DNA of 64,000 bases from the NCBI GenBank assembly GCA_963751455.1, contig CAVVUN010000015.1:480001-544000 (forward strand), in the 5' to 3' direction. Position numbers and translations under genes: made by a program. The notes under the pieces were generated by a model. That model did not search any database. It had not been told where the DNA came from and saw only the letters and a list, made by a program, of their open reading frames with translations. The stretch comes from Nitrospirota bacterium. Its GTDB lineage: Bacteria > Nitrospirota > UBA9217. This document shows positions 35,661 to 61,480 of the stretch, in pieces. Position 1 is the first letter of the stretch, and every line of letters begins with the position of its first letter.

Positions 35661-35750
35661 TCGCACAAAGCCGCAAAGTCGCCATGGGAAGGCTGCAGGT
35701 TCAAAGTCTTTTAAAGAAATTTCCCGGCTTTTCTTTGCGTCTTTGCGCGA
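35661..35750. repeat. Period-8 inverted tandem repeat (CGCAAAG/CTTTGCG type)
   Basis: tcgcacaaagccgcaaagtcgc ... ctttgcgtctttgcgcga. Confidence 0.75.
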
Positions 35751-52561: not shown

Positions 52562-54739
52562 ATGTCTGACCTGCTTGTCGAAATAGCCGTCAATATCTCC
52601 GTTAACAAGACTTTTTATTACCGCGCTCCGGAACAGATGAAAGGCGTTCTTGTGCCCGGGGCCCGCGTACTTGTGCCCTTCGGCGCGAGGCGCATTGCCG
52701 GGACAGTGCTCGGCTTTCCGGACAAAACTGCTCAGATCGCTCTGAAGTCGGTGATCGAAATACTGGACGATCCTCTGCCTCCGGACCTCCTCCAACTTGC
52801 CCGATGGATGGCCGAATACTACCTGTACCCGCTCGGCCAGACCATCGAAGCCGTTGTGCCCAAAGCTCTTTCCCGCGCAAAACCCAAAAAGAAAAAGTAC
52901 CTGGAGCTTCTCTCCGGAGATCATGATCTCGAAGCCCTTCGGGGGCCGAAGCAGAGAGAGCTTCTCCTGCTCCTGTGCGATCGTCAGGTCATGAGCATGG
53001 AAGACCTGAAGGAGTTTTCTTCTGTCACGATCAAAAGCCTGTGCGCATTCAATATGGCCGCGGTCGTCGAGCGTGAAGTAGAAGAGCAACCGGAAACGGT
53101 TCCATTCACGCCGAGCCGGCCGCCCGAACTGATGCCTGCTCAGTCTGAAGCTGTGCGCCGGATCGACGAAGCTGTCCTCCGCGCAAAGTTCGGCGCTTTT
53201 TTGCTCCACGGCGTGACGGGCAGCGGCAAGACTGAAGTCTATCTTCATGCCATCAAACAGGCTTCCAACTCGGGCAAAGGCGCGATCGTGCTCGTCCCGG
53301 AGATCGCGCTGACGCCGCAGCTCCTGTCGCGCTTCAGGCAGCGCTTCGGCAGCCGGGTCGCCGTGCTGCACAGCGGCCTTTCGGACCGTGAGCGGGCGGG
53401 TGAATATCGCCGTATTCAGAGCGGCCAGGTAGACGTGGCCGTCGGCGCCCGCTCGGCCGTGTTTGCTCCCTTTAAAAATACGGGACTCATCATTGTCGAC
53501 GAGGAGCACGAAAATTCATATAAGCAGGATGAGGGTCTGCGCTATCACGCACGCGACGTCGCGGTCGTTCGGGCGAAGTTCAGCAGCGCCGTTGCCGTGC
53601 TCGGCTCCGCGACCCCGTCTCTCGAAAGCTGCTACAATGCCAGGAACGGCAAATACGAGTATCTCCGGCTTGCGGACCGCGTAGACCACCGGCCGATGCC
53701 AAGCGTGGGCATCGTGGATGTAAAACAGACCCACAAAGAATCCCTCTATACCCCGGCGCTGATTTCTGCCGTCGGACAGCGGCTCGAAAGAAACGAACAG
53801 GTCCTTCTTCTCCTGAATCGCCGCGGGTTCTCGTCGGTCCTCATCTGCCGGGAATGCGGCGCCGCCATAAAATGCCCGAGCTGCAGCGTCTCACTCACTT
53901 TTCATAAATCAGAACAAAAGCTGAAATGCCACTACTGCGGGTATCTGACCCGGCTTCCGGATAAATGCCCGGCCTGCCAGGGCATCGATCTGAAGCTTCT
54001 CGGATCCGGAACGCAGAAGATCGAGGAAGAGGTGCAGAAACTTTTTCCTGCAGCGCGCATGAAAAGAATGGACAGCGACTCGGTCAAGGGAAGGGATGCC
54101 TACGAACGCCTCCTTCAACAAGTAGACCGGCGGGAAGTCGACATTCTGCTGGGTACACAGATGGTCGCAAAGGGACATGATTTTCCGGCGGTGACTCTCG
54201 TCGGTGTGGTTGATGCGGACGTCGGACTGAATCTGCCCGACTTCCGGTCAGCGGAAAAAACGTTTCAGTTGATTACCCAGGCAGCTGGAAGGGCGGGAAG
54301 GGGAGAGCTCGCCGGCGAGGTGATCATCCAGACAATGAACCCGAATCATTATTCCATTCGGCACAGCAGGACGCACGATTATGACAGCTTCTACAACGAG
54401 GAGATCGTGTACCGGACCGAACTCGGATATCCCCCGATAGGAAGGATGATCAAACTTGAAATTAAAGGTCCGGACGAGGCGCAGGCAGCGGAAGCCGCGA
54501 AAACCGCGCAGAACCGGATCAGGACCCTTATGCGGGCAAACAAGGATACTGTTCTTCTCGGTCCTGCTCCCGCCCCAATTGCGCGCGTGCGGGGGCAATA
54601 CCGGTTCCAGCTGATTTTGATTTCCCGAAAGAGGGACATGATCAGGTTTCTCGCAATAGAGGGAAGGAACGCGGTCGAGGAGAAGTTCGGCAGGAAGTGT
54701 AAAGTTATCGTGGACGTGGATCCGGTGAACCTGATGTAA
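52562..54739 (+). CDS. priA: Primosomal protein N'
   Basis: GVTGSGKTEVY, VPEIALTPQ, DEEH, Cys-rich region, QAAGRAGR, DVDP. Confidence 0.97.
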   Translation: MSDLLVEIAVNISVNKTFYYRAPEQMKGVLVPGARVLVPFGARRIAGTVLGFPDKTAQIALKSVIEILDDPLPPDLLQLARWMAEYYLYPLGQTIEAVVPKALSRAKPKKKKYLELLSGDHDLEALRGPKQRELLLLLCDRQVMSMEDLKEFSSVTIKSLCAFNMAAVVEREVEEQPETVPFTPSRPPELMPAQSEAVRRIDEAVLRAKFGAFLLHGVTGSGKTEVYLHAIKQASNSGKGAIVLVPEIALTPQLLSRFRQRFGSRVAVLHSGLSDRERAGEYRRIQSGQVDVAVGARSAVFAPFKNTGLIIVDEEHENSYKQDEGLRYHARDVAVVRAKFSSAVAVLGSATPSLESCYNARNGKYEYLRLADRVDHRPMPSVGIVDVKQTHKESLYTPALISAVGQRLERNEQVLLLLNRRGFSSVLICRECGAAIKCPSCSVSLTFHKSEQKLKCHYCGYLTRLPDKCPACQGIDLKLLGSGTQKIEEEVQKLFPAARMKRMDSDSVKGRDAYERLLQQVDRREVDILLGTQMVAKGHDFPAVTLVGVVDADVGLNLPDFRSAEKTFQLITQAAGRAGRGELAGEVIIQTMNPNHYSIRHSRTHDYDSFYNEEIVYRTELGYPPIGRMIKLEIKGPDEAQAAEAAKTAQNRIRTLMRANKDTVLLGPAPAPIARVRGQYRFQLILISRKRDMIRFLAIEGRNAVEEKFGRKCKVIVDVDPVNLM

Positions 54740-54773
54740 GCCTTTTTTAAACTACTCAAGCAAAAAAGACATC

Positions 54774-55020
54774 TCGCGCAAAGCCGCGCCCTGCATTCGC
54801 GCGTTCGCAATTCTTAGACTCATTGTTGTACCATCTCGCTTAAAAACGCGAGACGGGAATCAAGGGTAAAGCATAGACCCATTATTGTACCATCTGCCTG
54901 AGAAACGACAGACGGGAATCAAGGGTCTCATAAACGCTGGGTGCAGGCAAAGTCGCAAAGAACTGCAAAACTGAGTTTCTAAATCTTAAACTATTTTTTG
55001 CCGTCTCTGCCTTTGCGCGA
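54774..55020. repeat. CGCAAAG/CTTTGCG repeat interrupted by a structured insert
   Basis: tcgcgcaaagccgc[insert]aaagtcgcaaag ... ctttgcgcga. Confidence 0.75.
54788..54948 (-). other. Structured repeat element / candidate ncRNA with two tandem 52-nt hairpin units
   Basis: Units at 54816-54867 and 54875-54926; ends GCCCTGCA/TGCAGGC; homologous segment at 60806. Confidence 0.6.
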
Positions 55021-55110
55021 AAACCGTTTTAATATCTTTTTGTGTCTGTTCAGGCATTATGTGTTTCTATGGGTGGGGTGCTGTGCGGTTCTACGATGCG
55101 GGATTAAAGC

Positions 55111-55134
55111 GGGCACCGGTTCGTCCGGTGCCCC
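55111..55134 (-). terminator. Hairpin after the small exported protein
   Basis: GGGCACCGG-TTCGT-CCGGTGCCC followed by GCTTT on the minus strand. Confidence 0.6.
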
Positions 55135-55141
55135 AGGATGA

Positions 55142-55402
55142 TTACTTGTAACCGCCGGCAGCGGGAGCAGCAGCGGGTGCCGCAGCAGGTGCAGCAGCAG
55201 GTGCAGCAGCTTTCTGCTCTTCCTTCTTAGCCTCTTCTTTCTTGGCCTGTTTCTTCTTGGAAGCTTTCTTCTTCTTTTTTACAGGGGCTTTCTCTTCCTT
55301 CTTCGCCTCATCAGACGCGGGTTTAGCAGCTTCTTGTGCAAACGCGAAACCCATGGTCATGGTGAAAATCAGCGAAATAGCCAACGCGAGAATCTTCTTC
55401 AT
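55142..55402 (-). CDS. Small exported Lys/Ala-rich low-complexity protein
   Basis: Signal peptide ending AFA, poly-Lys tract, AAPA repeats; GGAGG RBS upstream (start 55402 or 55411). Confidence 0.75.
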   Translation of the reverse strand: MKKILALAISLIFTMTMGFAFAQEAAKPASDEAKKEEKAPVKKKKKASKKKQAKKEEAKKEEQKAAAPAAAPAAAPAAAPAAGGYK

Positions 55403-55513
55403 CCTTTTCACCTCCTTTCAAGCAAAAATGATAATAATAAATGTTTATACTCTATCAAAGGCATAACCGCACGTCAAGCTCCGTCTAATCAATTTTTCCT
55501 GTAAAAACCGTCT

Positions 55514-57058
55514 TCAATGCCCGGCAGGCGGACCGCTCGCACCCGTCTCGGCCCGCTGCATAATAAACACGAGCGGGAGCATGCAGAGGATCATCAGGCA
55601 GATGATAAGGAATGCATCGGAGAAGGCGAGCGTAGTGGATTGCCGAACGAGTTCCCGGTACATTAGTCCGTCCGCGGCATTCGTGGGCAAGCCCTTTGCC
55701 GCAAGGGCTGATGCCAGATTGTCCCGGTAAAGCGAATAGCCCGGGTCGAACGGAGACAGGTGCTCGACGAGGCGCGTCTGATGGAACTGCGCCCGGCGCG
55801 CGAGCACCGTCGTTGTGAAGGCTATGCCTACGCTCCCTCCAAGGTTTCGAAGCAGGTTGTACAAGGAGGTCGCCTCTGTCATCTGCTCCCTCGGAATGTG
55901 CGACAGCGTGAGGGTCGTGAGGGGGATGAATGTCATTCCCATGCCGAACCCGAGGAATACCCGCGGCCATACGAACGTCCAGAAATCGGTGGTCAGGTTG
56001 AACCTGGACATGAGATATGTGCTGAGCGCGCAGAGACTGATGCCGAAGACCAGGAAGCGCTTCGGGTTCACTTTCCCCACGAATTTGCCGACGATGGGCA
56101 TCGCGAATATTGTGGCGATACCGCCCGGGCCGAGCACCAGCCCCGCATAATATGACGTATAACCCATCAGGTTCTGAAGGAATATAGGCAGGAGCACAAT
56201 GCTGCCGAAGAGGTTCAGGAAAACGAAGAACATGACCGTTGCGCCGCTTGTGAATGTCCGGTCCTTGAACAGCCTCAGGTTTACAATCGGGTGCTCCGAA
56301 TACATCTCGTTGATCACCAGAAGAACCAGTGCAACGACCGCGATCACCGAGAAGATTACAATCAGATCCGATTCGAACCAGGCCTCGCTCTCGCCTTTGT
56401 CGAGAAGAAACTGAAGCGAGCCGAGCCCGACGGCAAGGAGCAGCAGACCGGAATAGTCTATTTTCATTTTCTGCCGTTTCATGTAAGGGGGGTCCTGGAT
56501 GACGATGATGTTCATGATGATCGAGAGTATACCGATAGGGATATTGATATAGAAGATCCAGCGCCAGGACCAGTTGTCCGTTATCCATCCGCCGAGCAGC
56601 GGTCCCACGATCGGGCCGAGCATGGCCCCCAGGCCGAAGATTGCCATGGCTTGGCCGTGCTTCTCCCTCGGAAATGACTCGAGCAGGATGGACTGGCTTA
56701 TCGGAACGAGGCCGCCTCCTCCCAGGCCCTGCACTACCCTGAAAAAGACCAGGCTGCTCAGGTTCCAGGCCGAGCCGCACATGAACGAACTGATGGTAAA
56801 CAAGGCGATCGAGGCGATCTGGTAGTTTTTCCTTCCCATAAGACGGGCAAGCCAGCCTGCCATTGGAATGACGACCGCGTTCGATACCAGATACGCCGTG
56901 ATGGTCCAGGTGGCCTCATCCATCCCGGCAGACAACGAGCCCCTGATGTGGTTCAGCGAGACATTAACGATCGAGGTATCGATGATCTCGATCAGAGTAG
57001 GGAGCATGACGGTAAAGGCGATAAGGCCGCGGCTGGTAGTCTTGTGCTGCAGGGTCAT
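55514..57058 (-). CDS. emrB: DHA2 multidrug efflux MFS permease (EmrB-like)
   Basis: DTSIVNV, WTITAYL, FRVVQG, WRWIFYINIP, RNLGGS. Confidence 0.92.
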   Translation of the reverse strand: MTLQHKTTSRGLIAFTVMLPTLIEIIDTSIVNVSLNHIRGSLSAGMDEATWTITAYLVSNAVVIPMAGWLARLMGRKNYQIASIALFTISSFMCGSAWNLSSLVFFRVVQGLGGGGLVPISQSILLESFPREKHGQAMAIFGLGAMLGPIVGPLLGGWITDNWSWRWIFYINIPIGILSIIMNIIVIQDPPYMKRQKMKIDYSGLLLLAVGLGSLQFLLDKGESEAWFESDLIVIFSVIAVVALVLLVINEMYSEHPIVNLRLFKDRTFTSGATVMFFVFLNLFGSIVLLPIFLQNLMGYTSYYAGLVLGPGGIATIFAMPIVGKFVGKVNPKRFLVFGISLCALSTYLMSRFNLTTDFWTFVWPRVFLGFGMGMTFIPLTTLTLSHIPREQMTEATSLYNLLRNLGGSVGIAFTTTVLARRAQFHQTRLVEHLSPFDPGYSLYRDNLASALAAKGLPTNAADGLMYRELVRQSTTLAFSDAFLIICLMILCMLPLVFIMQRAETGASGPPAGH

Positions 57059-57945
57059 CGGGCAAGCACCGTCGGTTCCACCGACATGCCGACCTTCAGA
57101 ACGTGGTCCTTGTCCGCTCCCGCTTCCAGCACAATTTTGACCGGGACCCGCTGTACTACCTTCACGTAATTGCCGGTCGCATTTTCGGGCGGAAAAAGCG
57201 AGAAGGACGCTCCTGTACCGGCCATGATACTGTCCACTTTTCCTGTGAAGACTTTGCCGGGATATGCGTCCACCCTGATCTTTACTTGCTGCCCCGGCCG
57301 GATGCGTGCGAGCTCGGTTTCCTTGTAATTTGCAACGACGTAAATGTTTTCAAGCTCCACCACAGCCATAAGAGGCTGCCCTGTCTGCACCTGGTTGCCG
57401 GTCTGAACGGATTTGCGCGTGACATAGCCGTTGGAAGGAGCCGGAACAATAGTATAGCCAAGGTTGAGATTGGCCTGCCGGAGCTGCTCCTCGGCCAGCT
57501 TCACCTGGGCGGCGGCGACATCCCGGGAAGAGACAGCCTTGTCATACCGGTCTGCAGAGTTCGCGTCCTGCTCGAACAGCGCCTTCGCCCGCTTCAGGTC
57601 CTTTTCGGCCTGACGGAGGTTCGCACGCTGGAGTTCAAAGTTCGCACGGGCGGCTTCGGCGCGCGACCGGTAATCCACTTGATCGAGTTCGACCAGTATA
57701 TCTCCCTTCTTGACCGGCTGGTTGTCCTCCGCGCGAACGGTCTTGACATTGCCGCTGACCCTTGCAGAGATCGTATGAATGTTGCCCTCGATGAAGGCAT
57801 CGTCCGTGGACACGTGCGTCCTCCGGTATTGTGAATAAAAAAAGGCGGTGATCAGGCCCATGAGAACAACGATTCCGACGATTAAAAAGGCTTTTTTCTT
57901 TTTCTTTCCGTTGCTGCCGTCAGTTGCTTGCTGCTGTTCCGCCAT
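57055..57945 (-). CDS. emrA: HlyD/EmrA family membrane fusion protein
   Basis: STDDA, ANYKET, FSLFPPENATGNYVKVVQRVPV. Confidence 0.93.
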   Translation of the reverse strand: MAEQQQATDGSNGKKKKKAFLIVGIVVLMGLITAFFYSQYRRTHVSTDDAFIEGNIHTISARVSGNVKTVRAEDNQPVKKGDILVELDQVDYRSRAEAARANFELQRANLRQAEKDLKRAKALFEQDANSADRYDKAVSSRDVAAAQVKLAEEQLRQANLNLGYTIVPAPSNGYVTRKSVQTGNQVQTGQPLMAVVELENIYVVANYKETELARIRPGQQVKIRVDAYPGKVFTGKVDSIMAGTGASFSLFPPENATGNYVKVVQRVPVKIVLEAGADKDHVLKVGMSVEPTVLAR

Positions 57946-57987
57946 TCCATTCTCCTATCAGCTATAGCTGTCATCTGACAACCTGGA

Positions 57988-59274
57988 TCATTTGGCATAC
58001 GTGCGCGTCAGGTCCTTGCCGGCCGCGTTTAAAAATGAAGCTTCAGCCCGTTCAAATCCATAGAGTGCTTTCCACGAATTCGTCTCCGCCGTACTAAGGA
58101 GGGTTACCGCATCCAGTACTTCTGTCGCGGTGCCGACGCCCTCCTGGAACCGCAGCCGCTGCAGACGGAGATTTTCCTCCGCCTGCGCCATCGCCGTCCT
58201 GGCAACCTCAATTTTCCGGCCGGAGCTCTGCAGTTCCAGATACGCGCCCTTGACCTCAAGCCGAATGGCGTCAAGCATCTTTTCACGGGACAGCTTGAGC
58301 GACCGGAGCTCGCTTCTCGCAATGCCGACCCTGGAACTGCTCGCTCCGCCGGACAGCAGGTTCAGATTTATTCCTGCTATGACCGACCAGTTGTCCTGAT
58401 GGACCAGGTATCTGTTTTCGAGATTTTCGTAGCCCCCGGAAACGTAAAAGGTGGGCATGTATTCGGCCTGCGCCGCTTTCACGTTTTCTTCTTTCGCGGC
58501 GATCACTGCATCCAGTTGCTGAAGCACCGGGCGCGCAGCCTCAGCGCTTGCCCATGCTTCTTCGAGTGTAAGCCCTGCTGAGGGTCTTATGCCGATTTCT
58601 TCCGCCTGTACTTGTTCATTGAGGGGCCTGAGCAGGAGACTGTTTATCTGCGACGCCCTGAGAGACACCATGTTCTCCGCGGTCAAAAAGCGCTGGCGGG
58701 AATCGGCCAGCGTAACATCCGCCTGCAACACCTCGCTTTTTGTGATTATTCCGGCATGATACCGCGCTTCAGCGTCTTTTTTGTGCGCCTCGTAGCGCTG
58801 CACTTCCTTGCCTCCGACCTGCAGCAGTTTATCGGATTCGAGGAGCGCCAGATATGCCGTCACAAATTCGAGTGCGGCCCTGCTTCTCGTACCCCGGGTT
58901 TCAAACTCGCGGGCTCTCACTCCGTGTTCTGCGGCGCTGACCGATGCCGAGGTCCTCCCGAAATCATAGAGAACCTGATTGGCGCGCACCCCGTAGGTCA
59001 GGAACCGGTCCTGGGAAGTGGAAAACGAGCCGAAGGGCGCCTTCGCGGCAGGCTGGTATCTCAGCCATGTTTCGCGCCCGTACAAATCAACCGACGGCAG
59101 CCGGGGTGAGCGCGCCAACGAAACAGCGCTTCGCGCTGCCTCCTCGTCAGACTCTGCAATTTTGATATCCCGCCCGCTCTCGGTGACGATTTTGAGCCCC
59201 TCCTGGAGGGTCAGTGCCGGGCTTTGAGAGGGAAGGAGCAATAGAAAGAGAAAAAGCAATTCGGATCGTTTCAT
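57988..59274 (-). CDS. TolC family outer membrane efflux protein
   Basis: Signal peptide, LYDFG, AEYMP, duplicated RY.AG/RF.EG repeats; GAGG RBS. Confidence 0.9.
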   Translation of the reverse strand: MKRSELLFLFLLLLPSQSPALTLQEGLKIVTESGRDIKIAESDEEAARSAVSLARSPRLPSVDLYGRETWLRYQPAAKAPFGSFSTSQDRFLTYGVRANQVLYDFGRTSASVSAAEHGVRAREFETRGTRSRAALEFVTAYLALLESDKLLQVGGKEVQRYEAHKKDAEARYHAGIITKSEVLQADVTLADSRQRFLTAENMVSLRASQINSLLLRPLNEQVQAEEIGIRPSAGLTLEEAWASAEAARPVLQQLDAVIAAKEENVKAAQAEYMPTFYVSGGYENLENRYLVHQDNWSVIAGINLNLLSGGASSSRVGIARSELRSLKLSREKMLDAIRLEVKGAYLELQSSGRKIEVARTAMAQAEENLRLQRLRFQEGVGTATEVLDAVTLLSTAETNSWKALYGFERAEASFLNAAGKDLTRTYAK

Positions 59275-59439
59275 CGCACACCTCGAGGGCTTCGCAAAAT
59301 GTAAGTAGGCGCTATAATACATGAAAAATAGAGAAAAGGAAAGGTTCGCCGGCCATGTTATGCAGGCAGTTTCGGTACTTTTTTTCTTCGCCCGACTTGC
59401 TGCAGGGTTTATAATAGTTGAAGAGAGGAAGTTAACAAA

Positions 59440-60363
59440 ATGCCGCACGTTATTTCCGCAAGCAGAAGGACCGATATCCCGGCTTTTTATTCTGAGTGGT
59501 TTCTGAACCGGCTGAAGGCCGGGTTTGTCTATGTACAGCAGCCCTATAACGGAAAGATGCGGCGTGTATCATTGGATCCTGATGATGTAAGCGCCATATT
59601 TTTCTGCTCAAAAAATTACCGGCCGCTTTTGGGTAAACTTGAAGAGATCGAGCGAACCACACCGAACCTTTTCTTTCACTATACGATAACAGCGAACAGG
59701 GAACTTGAGTTCAATACGCCCGACTACCGGGAGGCAATTCGGGATTATATCTACATTGCGGAACGCTACTCGCAGGACCACATCATCTGGCGGTATGACC
59801 CCATCTGCATAACCGACAAGCTTTCCCTGGAAGTGCATGAGGAGCGTTTTGTGCGCTGCGCCGAGCTTCTCAAAGGACATGTTAAACGCTGCATTATCAG
59901 TTTTGTTTACCCGTATAAAAAAGTGATTTCGAATATGAAGAAGTATACCGACCATGCAATACTTGATCTATCCACGGAAGTAAAAAGAGCATATGCAGAC
60001 CGTCTCGCAATGAAAGCACGCTCCTTCGGTGTTCAGCTTTATGCCTGCTGTAATGATTATCTGCTTTCGGACAATGTGTTTAAGGGAAGCTGCATAGACG
60101 GACAGTACCTGACAAGGCTGTTCAAGGCGCCGATCGATACCAGGACGGCAGCCTCACGGAAAGAGTGTGGTTGTACAAAAAGCGTGGATATCGGGGCATA
60201 CGACACCTGCGCCCATGAATGCATTTATTGCTACGCAACGATGGACAAAAATAAATCGAGGTCCGTTCAGCAGATGCATCACCCGAAATGGAATTCGCTC
60301 AGGAGCAACGTCCCTGAAAGCGTGGCGGAACAGGCCGGTGAAGCGCAGATGCAGCTCTTGTAA
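59440..60363 (+). CDS. DUF1848 family protein
   Basis: ISASRRTDIPAFY, WRYDPI, CGC...DIG.YDTC.H.C.YCYA. Confidence 0.92.
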   Translation: MPHVISASRRTDIPAFYSEWFLNRLKAGFVYVQQPYNGKMRRVSLDPDDVSAIFFCSKNYRPLLGKLEEIERTTPNLFFHYTITANRELEFNTPDYREAIRDYIYIAERYSQDHIIWRYDPICITDKLSLEVHEERFVRCAELLKGHVKRCIISFVYPYKKVISNMKKYTDHAILDLSTEVKRAYADRLAMKARSFGVQLYACCNDYLLSDNVFKGSCIDGQYLTRLFKAPIDTRTAASRKECGCTKSVDIGAYDTCAHECIYCYATMDKNKSRSVQQMHHPKWNSLRSNVPESVAEQAGEAQMQLL

Positions 60364-60677
60364 TTTGCACCGGAAAAGAATTAATTGATATCAGCCACGG
60401 ATACACACGGATGAACACGGATAAAAGGAAAGGGCGGCCGGTCTGGTGAGTATTTAGCCCCGAAAAGAGATCTTTTCCTCCGCGCCCTCGCCGACCGCGC
60501 TTTTTGAAAAGCCTTAAACCAAAGGACCTGCCCCGCGAGCACAGCCTGCATTCGTACTTCGTCATGATCCTTTTCTTTTTCTGCACCGCCGTTCTCATCG
60601 CCGCGCAGACATGCCAGAATGTCTTCTGTTTAACTTAGCATGCAGTATAGCCGCCCATTGCGCTGAGCTTCGCACGC

Positions 60678-60870
60678 GCCTGCATGAGTTGTGGTTTACC
60701 GCCTCGATTCCCGGTCATGTAAAGCGCGGACGCTGCTCACGGGATGCAGGGCCTATTTGGACAAGCGGGTCAAAAGCAATACAATAAGTTCTAAATCCGC
60801 ATTTCGCCTGCGCCCAGCGTTTATGAGGCCCTTAATTCCCGTCACGAGTCGAACTTCTTGGCATGACGTT
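60678..60870 (+). other. Two further members of the GCCTGC...GATTCCCG structured repeat family
   Basis: 60678-60752 GCCTGCA...TGCAGGGC; 60806-60843 is 35/38 identical to the reverse complement of 54911-54948. Confidence 0.6.
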
Positions 60871-60898: not shown

Positions 60899-60923
60899 AA
60901 AAAAGGCCCGGCATGCCGGGCCT
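60899..60923 (-). terminator. Intrinsic terminator of csp
   Basis: AGGCCCGGC-AT-GCCGGGCC followed by a T run on the minus strand. Confidence 0.7.
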
Positions 60924-60941
60924 CGATAGTGAAGGGTGAGA

Positions 60942-61145
60942 TTACATCTTTGTTACATGAGCGGCTTTGGGACCTTTCGGGCTGTCAACTACTTCAAACG
61001 TAACTTCTTCGCCTTCAGAGAGCGTTTTGTAGCCTTCGCCCTCGATTTCGCTGAAGTGCACGAAGACGTCTCCCCCGTCTTCTTTGGCAATGAAGCCAAA
61101 ACCTTTAGCCTCATTAAACCATTTTACTTTTCCTCGTGTTGCCAT
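60942..61145 (-). CDS. csp: Cold-shock protein
   Basis: GKVKWFN..KGFGFI, DVFVHFS; AAGGAGG RBS. Confidence 0.97.
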
Positions 61146-61169
61146 GGGTTACCTCCTTCCGCTAAATAA

Positions 61170-61227
61170 AGCCCCCTCTCCCTTTTTCCCTCTCCCTCCA
61201 GGGGAGAGGGGCAGGGGTGAGGGAGCT
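61170..61227. repeat. CCCTCTCCC/GGGAGAGGG palindromic element in the csp 5' leader
   Basis: ccctctccctccaggggagaggggcaggggtgaggg. Confidence 0.7.
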
Positions 61228-61480
61228 CATATATCGAAGAATAGGAAGACGTCGCAAAAAAAGCCTCGAAGCTTAAGTCTCCGGGGCTTTATACGGCAAA
61301 AACTGACTTCCAACTTCTATAAAATAATCCCACATCGGCGTCACAAAATCAAGAAGATTTATAGGGCATTCGCAGGCTTCCGGTTGATATTGACAAGTTA
61401 ATAATAAAGTCTTAAATTAAGATTTCAAGCTTGAGTGATGAGTCATCGCAAGAATCGACAAACTATCGAGGCTGAGTAAA

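What the first reader, a model, noticed from the sequence alone, without database searches (positions are those of the whole stretch)
54788..54948. Structured element with tandem covarying hairpins inserted into another repeat
Seen: a 161-bp insert splits the consensus CGCGCAAAGCCGC|AAAGTCGCAAAG (uninterrupted at 35661 and 49790). On the minus strand it reads GCCUGCA..GCGUU-[unit]-[unit]-AACGC..UGCAGGGC. Each unit is ACCC-UUG-AUUC-stem-UA-CAA-(U/C)AAU-G(G/A)GU with 9-bp stems CCGUCUGUC/GGCAGAUGG and CCGUCUCGC/GCGAGAUGG. The compensatory changes and G-U pairs work only on the minus strand, while the internal-loop sequence is conserved. Inference: selection acts on a single-stranded fold, pointing to a small non-autonomous mobile RNA/ssDNA element or a protein-binding ncRNA. 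I do not recognise it as a known family.
Basis: partly seen in the sequence, partly recalled or inferred. Interest (0 to 1): 0.7.

Follow-up and report, generated by a model that had tools for sequence, protein, structure and literature searches.

The report
Tiny mobile hairpins nested three deep
The 161-base insert is a 44-base hairpin repeat carrying two copies of a second, 59-base hairpin repeat, all sitting inside a third repeat; both hairpins are likely tiny selfish elements that move as folded single strands with the help of an enzyme not yet identified.

Summary
The insert is real but composite. Element A (44 nt; 204 profile hits in this genome; found in 38 of 60 other genomes of the family) is split by two head-to-tail copies of element B (58-59 nt; 117 hits at 75 loci; found in 2 of 64 family genomes and 60 metagenome loci). 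The whole sits in the arm of a gene-less GxxExxY-type inverted repeat. Both A and B have covarying stems whose G-T/G-U wobbles favour the minus strand.

A lands after a G in 88 of 94 copies, without a target duplication, in many repeats, a group II intron, an IS200/IS605-like miniature, B and itself. It also exists as a 31-nt form, carries B as cargo (38 junctions), and forms exact head-to-tail dimers in two genomes. B lies behind priA in only 1 of 30 orthologous loci and Rfam has no match, so a locus-specific ncRNA is unlikely.

It behaves like the Nostoc SDR elements (recalled) but is not shown to be one. No enzyme gene adjoins it. Integron integrase tracks A best across genomes (p=0.0008, largely from one genus), yet attC and attG sequence rules fail. 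Most likely: single-stranded DNA circles joined by an enzyme acting in trans.

The parts
54927..54947 (-). Element A, 5' arm: 4-nt leader, 5' strand of the terminal stem P1, P2 and the left YGAR motif, ending at the G after which B sits
   Evidence: the start is fixed by exact A-A dimers in G184 and G177
54868..54926 (-). Element B, copy 1 (59 nt); its stem variant occurs once in the genome
   Evidence: (69.5 bits with model R1, which was built from an alignment that includes this copy)
54810..54867 (-). Element B, copy 2 (58 nt in this register); commonest stem type (21 matches in the genome)
   Evidence: (79.4 bits, same caveat)
54787..54809 (-). Element A, 3' arm: tip hairpin, right YGAR motif, P2 and P1 3' strand ending in the terminal G. 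Carries the compensatory T-A variant of the Y-R pair
54948..54961 (-). Host repeat arm, part 5' of the insertion on the minus strand; ends in the target G
54771..54786 (-). Host repeat arm, part 3' of the insertion on the minus strand
54996..55023 (+). Partner inverted arm of the host repeat. With the split arm and an AT-rich spacer it forms the gene-less version of the arms that flank a GxxExxY gene at G000:C2:422946
52562..54739 (+). Context only: priA, primosomal protein N' (725 aa)
   Evidence: TIGR00595, 648 bits, cut-off 230
55142..55411 (-). Context only: small Ala/Lys-rich ORF with a signal-peptide-like start, convergent with priA
60807..60843 (+). Second, truncated A+B copy in the window (A 5' arm plus the start of B)

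Best explanation
The insert is a 44-nt hairpin element (A) that sits after a G in the arm of a gene-less GxxExxY-type repeat and carries two head-to-tail copies of a 59-nt hairpin element (B); both likely move as folded single-stranded DNA circles joined to targets by an enzyme encoded elsewhere. Shown: the nesting, the folds and their strand, the junction rule (after G, usually before Y-R, no target duplication), cargo carrying, a 31-nt minimal form, exact dimers, and lineage-restricted bursts. Inferred: the enzyme reads the terminal stem P1 with its 4-5-nt leader and the bulged P2 region; it would cut after the terminal purine and at the left G, close a circle whose junction reads end-to-start as in the dimers, and insert by a single strand exchange after a target G. 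B would have entered A once or a few times, the A+B composite then spread as a unit, and the second B here would come from tandem amplification. The enzyme is not identified. The integron integrase is my weak first candidate (about 0.2 overall); an HUH/Y1-type protein (about 0.15) or the GxxExxY/four-helix-bundle machinery or an unknown protein (about 0.15) are close behind.
For: Structure: six of the seven highest APC-corrected column pairs in 89 A copies are Watson-Crick compensatory (the other marks the 5-nt-leader subfamily), and they occur in many haplotype combinations. B inner helix, 0 of 500 shuffles. The covarying folds are more stable on the minus-type strand under both RNA and DNA parameters. 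Junctions: G precedes the element in 88 of 94 copies, and flank and element end share 0-2 bases in 92 of 94. Reconstructed empty sites match at least 3 other intergenic places in 79 of 111, against 31 of 111 controls. A restores an intact-looking group II intron segment when removed at G000:C2:443099. Dimers with end-to-start junctions: G184:C183 and two identical copies in G177 (L221). Mobility: A counts range 0-143 within the family and are at chance level outside it. Orthologous loci of relatives carry A+B where G000 has none. The host repeat is abundant in genomes with 0-1 A (G005, G126, G048). DNA rather than RNA: the fold strand is antisense 76:40 where genes lie on the leading strand, and has the lagging-strand sequence 118:75 overall, p=0.002. 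[quoted passage not shown] IntI is present in 22 of 31 genomes with 5 or more A, against 8 of 30 with fewer (p=0.0008; within-genus permutation p=0.0014).
Against: No circle or excised form was observed, and no enzyme gene is flanked by A or B. The IntI signal falls to p=0.085 without genus g19, where GxxExxY tracks A perfectly too; seven genomes of genera g10, g6 and g5 have IntI but 0-1 A. A and B lack the AAC/GTT triplets, and only 6 of 116 A targets read GWT. Y1_Tnp does not track A (24 of 31 against 27 of 30). Exact A dimers were found in only 2 genomes, both fragmented assemblies; 4 of the 5 A-rich genomes searched for the junction showed none. The strand bias is modest, absent between convergent or divergent genes (22:21), and could reflect selection. 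G-U/G-T wobbles and tandem G-A pairs fit RNA as well as DNA. B's junctions are less clean than A's.
Confidence: 0.47

Rival explanations
1. The elements move through an RNA intermediate: the folded RNA is cut out or ligated, copied by a group II intron-type reverse transcriptase, and inserted at a nick after G. This is the route I recall being proposed for the Nostoc SDR elements.
For: Near-invariant G-U wobbles and a tandem G-A motif. Folds are more stable as RNA (true of most hairpins). The genome has 6 RT hits with group II intron-like flanks, and one A sits inside an intron. Head-to-tail multimers could come from rolling reverse transcription of a circle.
Against: RT hits do not track A (14 of 31 against 20 of 30; G018 with 106 A, G187 with 75 and G174 with 35 have none). 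The fold strand is more often antisense to flanking genes. A also inserts into the opposite strand of A.
Confidence: 0.25
2. No dedicated enzyme: the hairpins are captured at breaks made in the host repeats (for example by the GxxExxY, DUF559 or GIY-YIG nucleases) and spread by repair, gene conversion and slippage, and are then carried along by the host repeats.
For: Targets are strongly enriched for other repeats. Host-plus-insert composites recur almost unchanged (about 10 copies of the 31-nt form in one host context; 12 copies of A in one miniature in G009). GxxExxY is present in 29 of 31 A-rich genomes. Some B arrays have identical units.
Against: A's ends are precise to the base across dozens of unrelated hosts, and compensatory changes are kept in stems that a passive passenger would not need. 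The GxxExxY signal vanishes without genus g19 (p=0.61). Host repeats abound in A-free genomes.
Confidence: 0.15
3. The two-unit array is a functional non-coding RNA or regulatory hairpin (protein-binding RNA, terminator, or RNase III site between the convergent priA and small-protein genes).
For: Stable fold. Conserved internal-loop sequence. A few B sites are shared with relatives, some directly after stop codons.
Against: B occurs behind priA in 1 of 30 loci, and A in 2 of 30 in different hosts and orientations. Unit number varies from 1 to 6 and units are broken by further insertions. No Rfam match. B was found in 2 of 64 family genomes.
Confidence: 0.07

Closest known systems
Small dispersed repeats (SDR1-8) of Nostoc punctiforme, Elhai et al. 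2008 Genome Res 18:1484 (PMC2527708). Not held by the library; content recalled. Its existence and the SDR5/HIP1 point were seen as passages in PMC3116915 and PMC5861425.
   Same: As recalled: very small, structured with compensatory changes, embedded in heptamer repeats and miniature transposons, nested in themselves, confined to one lineage, no known enzyme.
   Different: Here 31, 44 and 59 nt rather than 21-27 nt (recalled). The host is a Nitrospirota family (by record titles of loci with the same composite). One element carries another as cargo. Exact dimers and a fixed G| junction are shown. Orientation leans against an RNA route. No sequence comparison was possible.
REP / REPIN with RAYT (TnpA-REP); PMC3116915 and PMC8266576, passages
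   Same: Dispersed 20-60-nt intergenic hairpins with irregular stems, recognised on one strand; the enzyme cleaves ssDNA at a minimal motif.
   Different: No GTAG at the foot, junctions are not at CT, no RAYT gene is flanked by A or B, copies do not come as inverted doublets, and Y1_Tnp does not track A.
Integron attC sites, cassettes at attG sites and SALINs; bioRxiv 10.1101/2022.09.11.507474 and PMC11023631, passages
   Same: Folded single-strand substrate, no target duplication, minimal G-anchored target, head-to-tail units, B is about attC size, fold strand on the leading-strand template, IntI present in the genome and co-occurring.
   Different: No conserved AAC/GTT triplets, target G|YR rather than GWT, no ORF, and unlike the true 56-66-nt attC sites beside this genome's intI genes.
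Non-autonomous IS200/IS605 derivatives moved by Y1 TnpA (established knowledge; guide rule as summarised in PMC8266576)
   Same: No target duplication, insertion 3' of a fixed motif, hairpin ends, circular ssDNA intermediate inferred.
   Different: One hairpin rather than two ends, a one-base target instead of a tetranucleotide, target not changed by the internal base that pairs with the end (8 of 11 A-ending copies still follow G), opposite replication-strand bias.
Streptococcal BOX elements (recalled, not checked)
   Same: Modular look: two outer arms forming a stem around a variable number of tandem inner units.
   Different: Here the inner unit is an independent element found alone, inside itself and in other hosts, and the outer element mostly occurs without it.

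Membership tests
SDR (Nostoc) | 21-27 nt length (recalled) | tested here: not met
   31, about 44 and 58-59 nt
SDR (Nostoc) | Conserved secondary structure with compensatory changes (recalled) | tested here: met
SDR (Nostoc) | Embedded in heptamer repeats and miniature transposons, and nested in itself (recalled) | tested here: met
SDR (Nostoc) | Sequence or shared fold homology to SDR1-8 | not testable with these tools
   paper not held; no SDR sequences were available
REP/REPIN-RAYT | Conserved GTAG tetranucleotide at the hairpin foot; cleavage at CT | tested here: not met
   A starts with a YYTG leader and joins at G|YR; rule from PMC8266576
REP/REPIN-RAYT | Cognate RAYT gene flanked by the repeats | tested here: not met
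   Of 33 Y1_Tnp hits, 26 were screened with short motifs over about 3.4 kb each and none was flanked by the elements (isolated single-motif hits near 6); a 27th lies about 0.9 kb from a B fragment
attC / integron cassette | Conserved AAC and GTT triplets in the R box | tested here: not met
   Not conserved in A or B alignments; a few B variants end in GTTAA
attC / integron cassette | Insertion at GWT (attG) sites | tested here: not met
   6 of 116 A targets; B junctions are mixed, with some at AA|C
attC / integron cassette | Integron integrase available in the genome | tested here: met
   TIGR02249 over its cut-off at two G000 loci; co-occurrence
attC / integron cassette | Recombination by IntI | not testable with these tools
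   needs an assay
IS200/IS605 miniature element | No target-site duplication | tested here: met
IS200/IS605 miniature element | Tetra- or pentanucleotide target set by a guide; ends shared with an autonomous IS | tested here: not met
   one-base target; no ORF-bearing A up to 6 kb and no multi-copy IS with such ends
Classical MITE | Terminal inverted repeats of 15-30 bp (PMC3733652) with a target duplication | tested here: not met
   5-bp terminal stem offset by a 4-nt leader; no duplication
Rfam RNA family | Match at a family's gathering score | tested here: not met
   no match over the element; across 10 loci one hit at 21 bits against a cut-off of 235
Kink-turn RNA | 3-nt bulge directly followed by tandem G-A pairs | tested here: not met
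   a covarying Y-R pair lies between the bulge and the tandem G-A; motif definition recalled

The most novel reading that the evidence does not exclude
A and B are ORF-less single-stranded DNA minicircles of 31-59 nt, among the smallest cargo-carrying mobile elements, that borrow the integron integrase (or a related single-strand recombinase) through shape alone, without attC sequence rules, and insert after almost any G in hairpin-rich DNA. This would supply the missing enzyme for SDR-type elements.
Probability: 0.17. Interest if true: 0.82.

Novelty: new variant of a known kind. Interest (0 to 1): 0.52.

Why it matters
How sub-60-nt repeats such as the SDR elements move is, as far as my searches reach, still unexplained (searches found no paper that names a mechanism; most subscription journals are not searched). 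This family makes the question testable. It has exact ends, a one-base target rule, a 31-nt minimal form that shows which parts matter, natural dimers that predict the circle junction, natural cargo up to about 340 nt in total length, and a short list of candidate enzymes. A 31-nt tag that can carry cargo would also be a very compact integration signal. If it is only passively spread repeat DNA, it is still a clean record of stepwise nesting that explains much of the intergenic DNA of these genomes.

Tried and rejected
Sequencing runs: none was listed for window 53800-55800, so excision, circles and expression were not tested; this is no evidence either way.

Plasmid and phage collections: no match. 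Viral contigs: the A pattern gave two loci on one contig; the B pattern gave none.

Autonomous partner: no ORF-bearing A-ended element up to 6 kb; long pairs were chance or two separate copies. No paralogous gene family is enriched beside A or B. Multi-copy IS ends do not resemble A or B. No Y2_Tnp hit, but that search's control rang nowhere, so absence is not shown. Y1_Tnp and RT do not track A. IS110 (PF02371) does not overall (20 of 31 against 16 of 30), though it gives p=0.015 within genera without g19, one of ten such tests.

Target read by the internal base that pairs with the element's end: rejected. K-turn: rejected. One search used a structure string one column off and is void; it was repeated.

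The four non-Nitrospirota hits are not B: no profile match; one is a DUF559-type hairpin.

Literature searches that found no description of these elements or of a GxxExxY/DUF559 repeat link. Elhai 2008 could not be read. No supplements of any paper were seen.

Full report
WHAT IS THERE. The stretch lies between the end of priA (52562-54739, +) and a small convergent ORF. Removing 161 nt restores an arm whose exact 23-nt form occurs 6 times elsewhere in the genome. The minus strand folds better than the plus strand (z -5.2 against -3.2). A blastn of the insert against the 5.72-Mb genome gave 244 output lines, shown in part, which fell into two families.

THREE LAYERS. The host is an inverted pair of arms around an AT-rich spacer. 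The same arms flank a GxxExxY (PF13366) gene at G000:C2:422946, and other GxxExxY genes have their own arm types. The host is therefore the gene-less form of that cassette. Inside one arm sits element A (minus strand, 54947-54927 and 54809-54787). Inside A sit two B units (54926-54868 and 54867-54810). A gives 204 profile hits in the genome; 127 of 192 left/right motif pairs are 52 nt or shorter. A 31-nt form with the same ends matches 28 times. B gives 117 hits at 75 loci, in arrays of 1-6 units, alone, inside A, inside B and inside other repeats. There are 38 A-B junctions. Nesting runs in all directions: A in A (either strand), A in B, B in B, a DUF559-type hairpin in B, A in a group II intron, and A in an IS200/IS605-like miniature that was then copied 12 times in G009. 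I call that host IS200/IS605-like from a recalled end motif; it was not tested.

FOLDS. For A, 94 of the 192 pairs fitted a fixed register, and the 89 with the commonest spacer were used for covariation. The top structural pairs are all Watson-Crick swaps: C-G 76/G-C 12, C-G 63/T-A 18, C-G 61/G-C 6, C-G 74/T-A 10, C-G 76/T-A 8 and C-G 85/A-T 3. They occur in many combinations. The fold is a 4-nt leader, a 5-bp terminal stem ending at the last base, an A-A mismatch, a short stem, a bulge, a Y-R pair, invariant tandem G-A and a tip hairpin. The 31-nt form keeps only the leader, the terminal stem and two G-C pairs. For B, I aligned 45 chosen units from G000, G011 and metagenomes (later counted 152 distinct units). 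The 9-bp inner helix covaries (5 of 9 pairs; 0 of 500 shuffles for the whole structure; slid controls collapse). The tool warns that relatedness inflates such scores. Both may be used. Wobbles favour one strand (G-T 55 against C-A 2 at one B pair), which shows single-strand selection but does not separate RNA from DNA.

JUNCTIONS. A G precedes A in 88 of 94 copies: 70 before a 4-nt leader and 18 before a 5-nt leader. The bases after the site are mostly Y then R. There is no target duplication beyond 0-2 shared bases. When A ends in A rather than G (11 copies), the internal partner is T in 10 and the target is still G in 8, so the end base is set by the stem and not by the target. Rebuilt empty sites are repeats far more often than control G|Y sites (79 against 31 of 111). 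Two genomes hold exact end-to-start dimers: G184:C183 and G177, where both copies are identical. These fix the unit and predict a circle junction, but both assemblies are fragmented, and 4 of the 5 genomes searched for the junction showed none. B's ends are more varied. It follows a G in A and in several other hosts, and sits at A|C sites elsewhere, several of them just after stop codons.

DISTRIBUTION AND MOBILITY. The A pattern was found in 38 of 60 other genomes of the family, with 0-143 copies including G000; the 190 genomes of other families in the phylum gave 10 single hits, near the reversed control. The B pattern was found in 2 of 64 family genomes, 9 loci of one Nitrospirota-titled genome among 13 GTDB hits and 60 metagenome loci. 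Of 11 orthologous intervals I aligned (70-80% identical flanks), 9 lack the A/B insert in G000 and 2 share a B site; the flanks are too diverged to show precise empty alleles. Behind priA, B is present in 1 of 30 genomes and A in 2.

ORIENTATION. With my own gene calls (4980 genes) and strand inferred from GC skew, A lies antisense 70:43 between co-directional genes and B 28:25. Pooled, the fold strand has the lagging-strand sequence 118:75 (p=0.002). The bias is 76:40 where genes are on the leading strand, 20:14 where they are on the lagging strand, and 22:21 elsewhere. This is opposite to what an RNA target, or TnpA acting on the lagging-strand template, would give. It matches the resting orientation of attC bottom strands (PMC11023631, passages). 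Selection alone could also produce it.

WHICH ENZYME. The genome has 33 Y1_Tnp, 6 RT, 4 IS110, 1 DUF559, 10 GxxExxY, 9 four-helix-bundle and 6 GIY-YIG hits, and IntI at three loci. None of those I inspected is bracketed by A or B. Across the 61 genomes with both kinds of data (G252, G253 and G017 lack an A count), presence in A-rich (5 or more copies) against A-poor genomes was: IntI 22/31 vs 8/30 (p=0.0008), GxxExxY 29/31 vs 19/30 (p=0.005), IS110 20/31 vs 16/30, Y1 24/31 vs 27/30, RT 14/31 vs 20/30. The IntI threshold (E<1e-60) was chosen after seeing the table, and fragments in G009 and G171 were counted as absent. Within genera, IntI gives p=0.0014, but 0.085 without g19; GxxExxY gives 0.0044 and 0.61; IS110 gives 0.14 and 0.015. 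Draft genomes lose mobile genes and kin are not independent, so this is a lead only. Against IntI, the AAC/GTT triplets are missing, only 6 of 116 targets fit the GWT rule (bioRxiv 10.1101/2022.09.11.507474, passages), and the genome's true attC sites look different.

MECHANISM. Shown: structure, strand, nesting, junction rule, cargo, dimers, patchy spread. Inferred: excision of the folded strand as a circle and insertion by one strand exchange after a G, by an enzyme in trans that reads the terminal stem. I put ssDNA circles at about 0.47, an RNA intermediate at 0.25, passive capture and conversion at 0.15, and a functional ncRNA at 0.07.

COMPARISON. It works like the Nostoc SDR elements as I recall them. 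That paper was not held; I saw only citing passages in PMC3116915 and PMC5861425. It fails their recalled size range, and homology could not be tested. It fails defining tests for REP/RAYT (PMC8266576, passages), attC, IS200/IS605 miniatures and classical MITEs (PMC3733652, passages), and has no Rfam match. Earlier notes of this scan describe similar nested hairpins and GxxExxY arms in other genomes. These are unchecked leads, not support, but they suggest the phenomenon is widespread.

VERDICT. Real, selfish and nested; a new variant of a known but unexplained kind. Interest 0.52, because exact ends, a minimal form and dimers make the mechanism of very small mobile repeats directly testable.

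Noticed in passing
window 60565-60755 (+); about 20 copies in G000: A further repeat of about 200 nt, often beside another repeat, itself hit by A and B insertions. Its family and any autonomous partner are unknown.
   Followed up: partly
window 61168-61229: Two-sided DUF559-type hairpin upstream of cspA. A minority of stand-alone B copies share its inner stem, so B may descend from such hairpins.
   Followed up: partly
window 60899-61276 (-): Cold-shock gene region with a sub-threshold Rfam cspA match (42 bits, cut-off 78).
   Followed up: no
G000:C2:422946, C15:1252989, C12:21593, C2:654134, C15:1718983: GxxExxY genes, each bracketed by its own type of inverted arms made of short tandem units; the gene-less forms are the main hosts of A.
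   Followed up: partly
G000:C6:154803: The single DUF559 gene appears frameshifted near its start and is flanked by inverted hairpin repeats.
   Followed up: no
G000:C1:545579-546525 and relatives: Y1_Tnp proteins of about 290-330 aa in multi-copy elements with terminal inverted repeats, unlike IS200.
   Followed up: no
G000:C10:5037 and C15:1572029: The same gene pair occurs twice in the assembly with different B arrays (2 hits against 6), probably a strain variant; useful for studying array growth.
   Followed up: no
L061-L072 (G009): Twelve copies of an IS200/IS605-like miniature, all carrying the same A variant with a compensatory change in the terminal stem.
   Followed up: partly
L177-L205: The interval behind priA is a hot spot: heptamer arrays, toxin-antitoxin-like small genes (judged by eye), a GxxExxY-like gene (L193) and an integrase fragment (L187) in different genomes.
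   Followed up: no
window 55514-59448 (-): EmrB/EmrA/TolC-type efflux operon; unrelated to the element.
   Followed up: no
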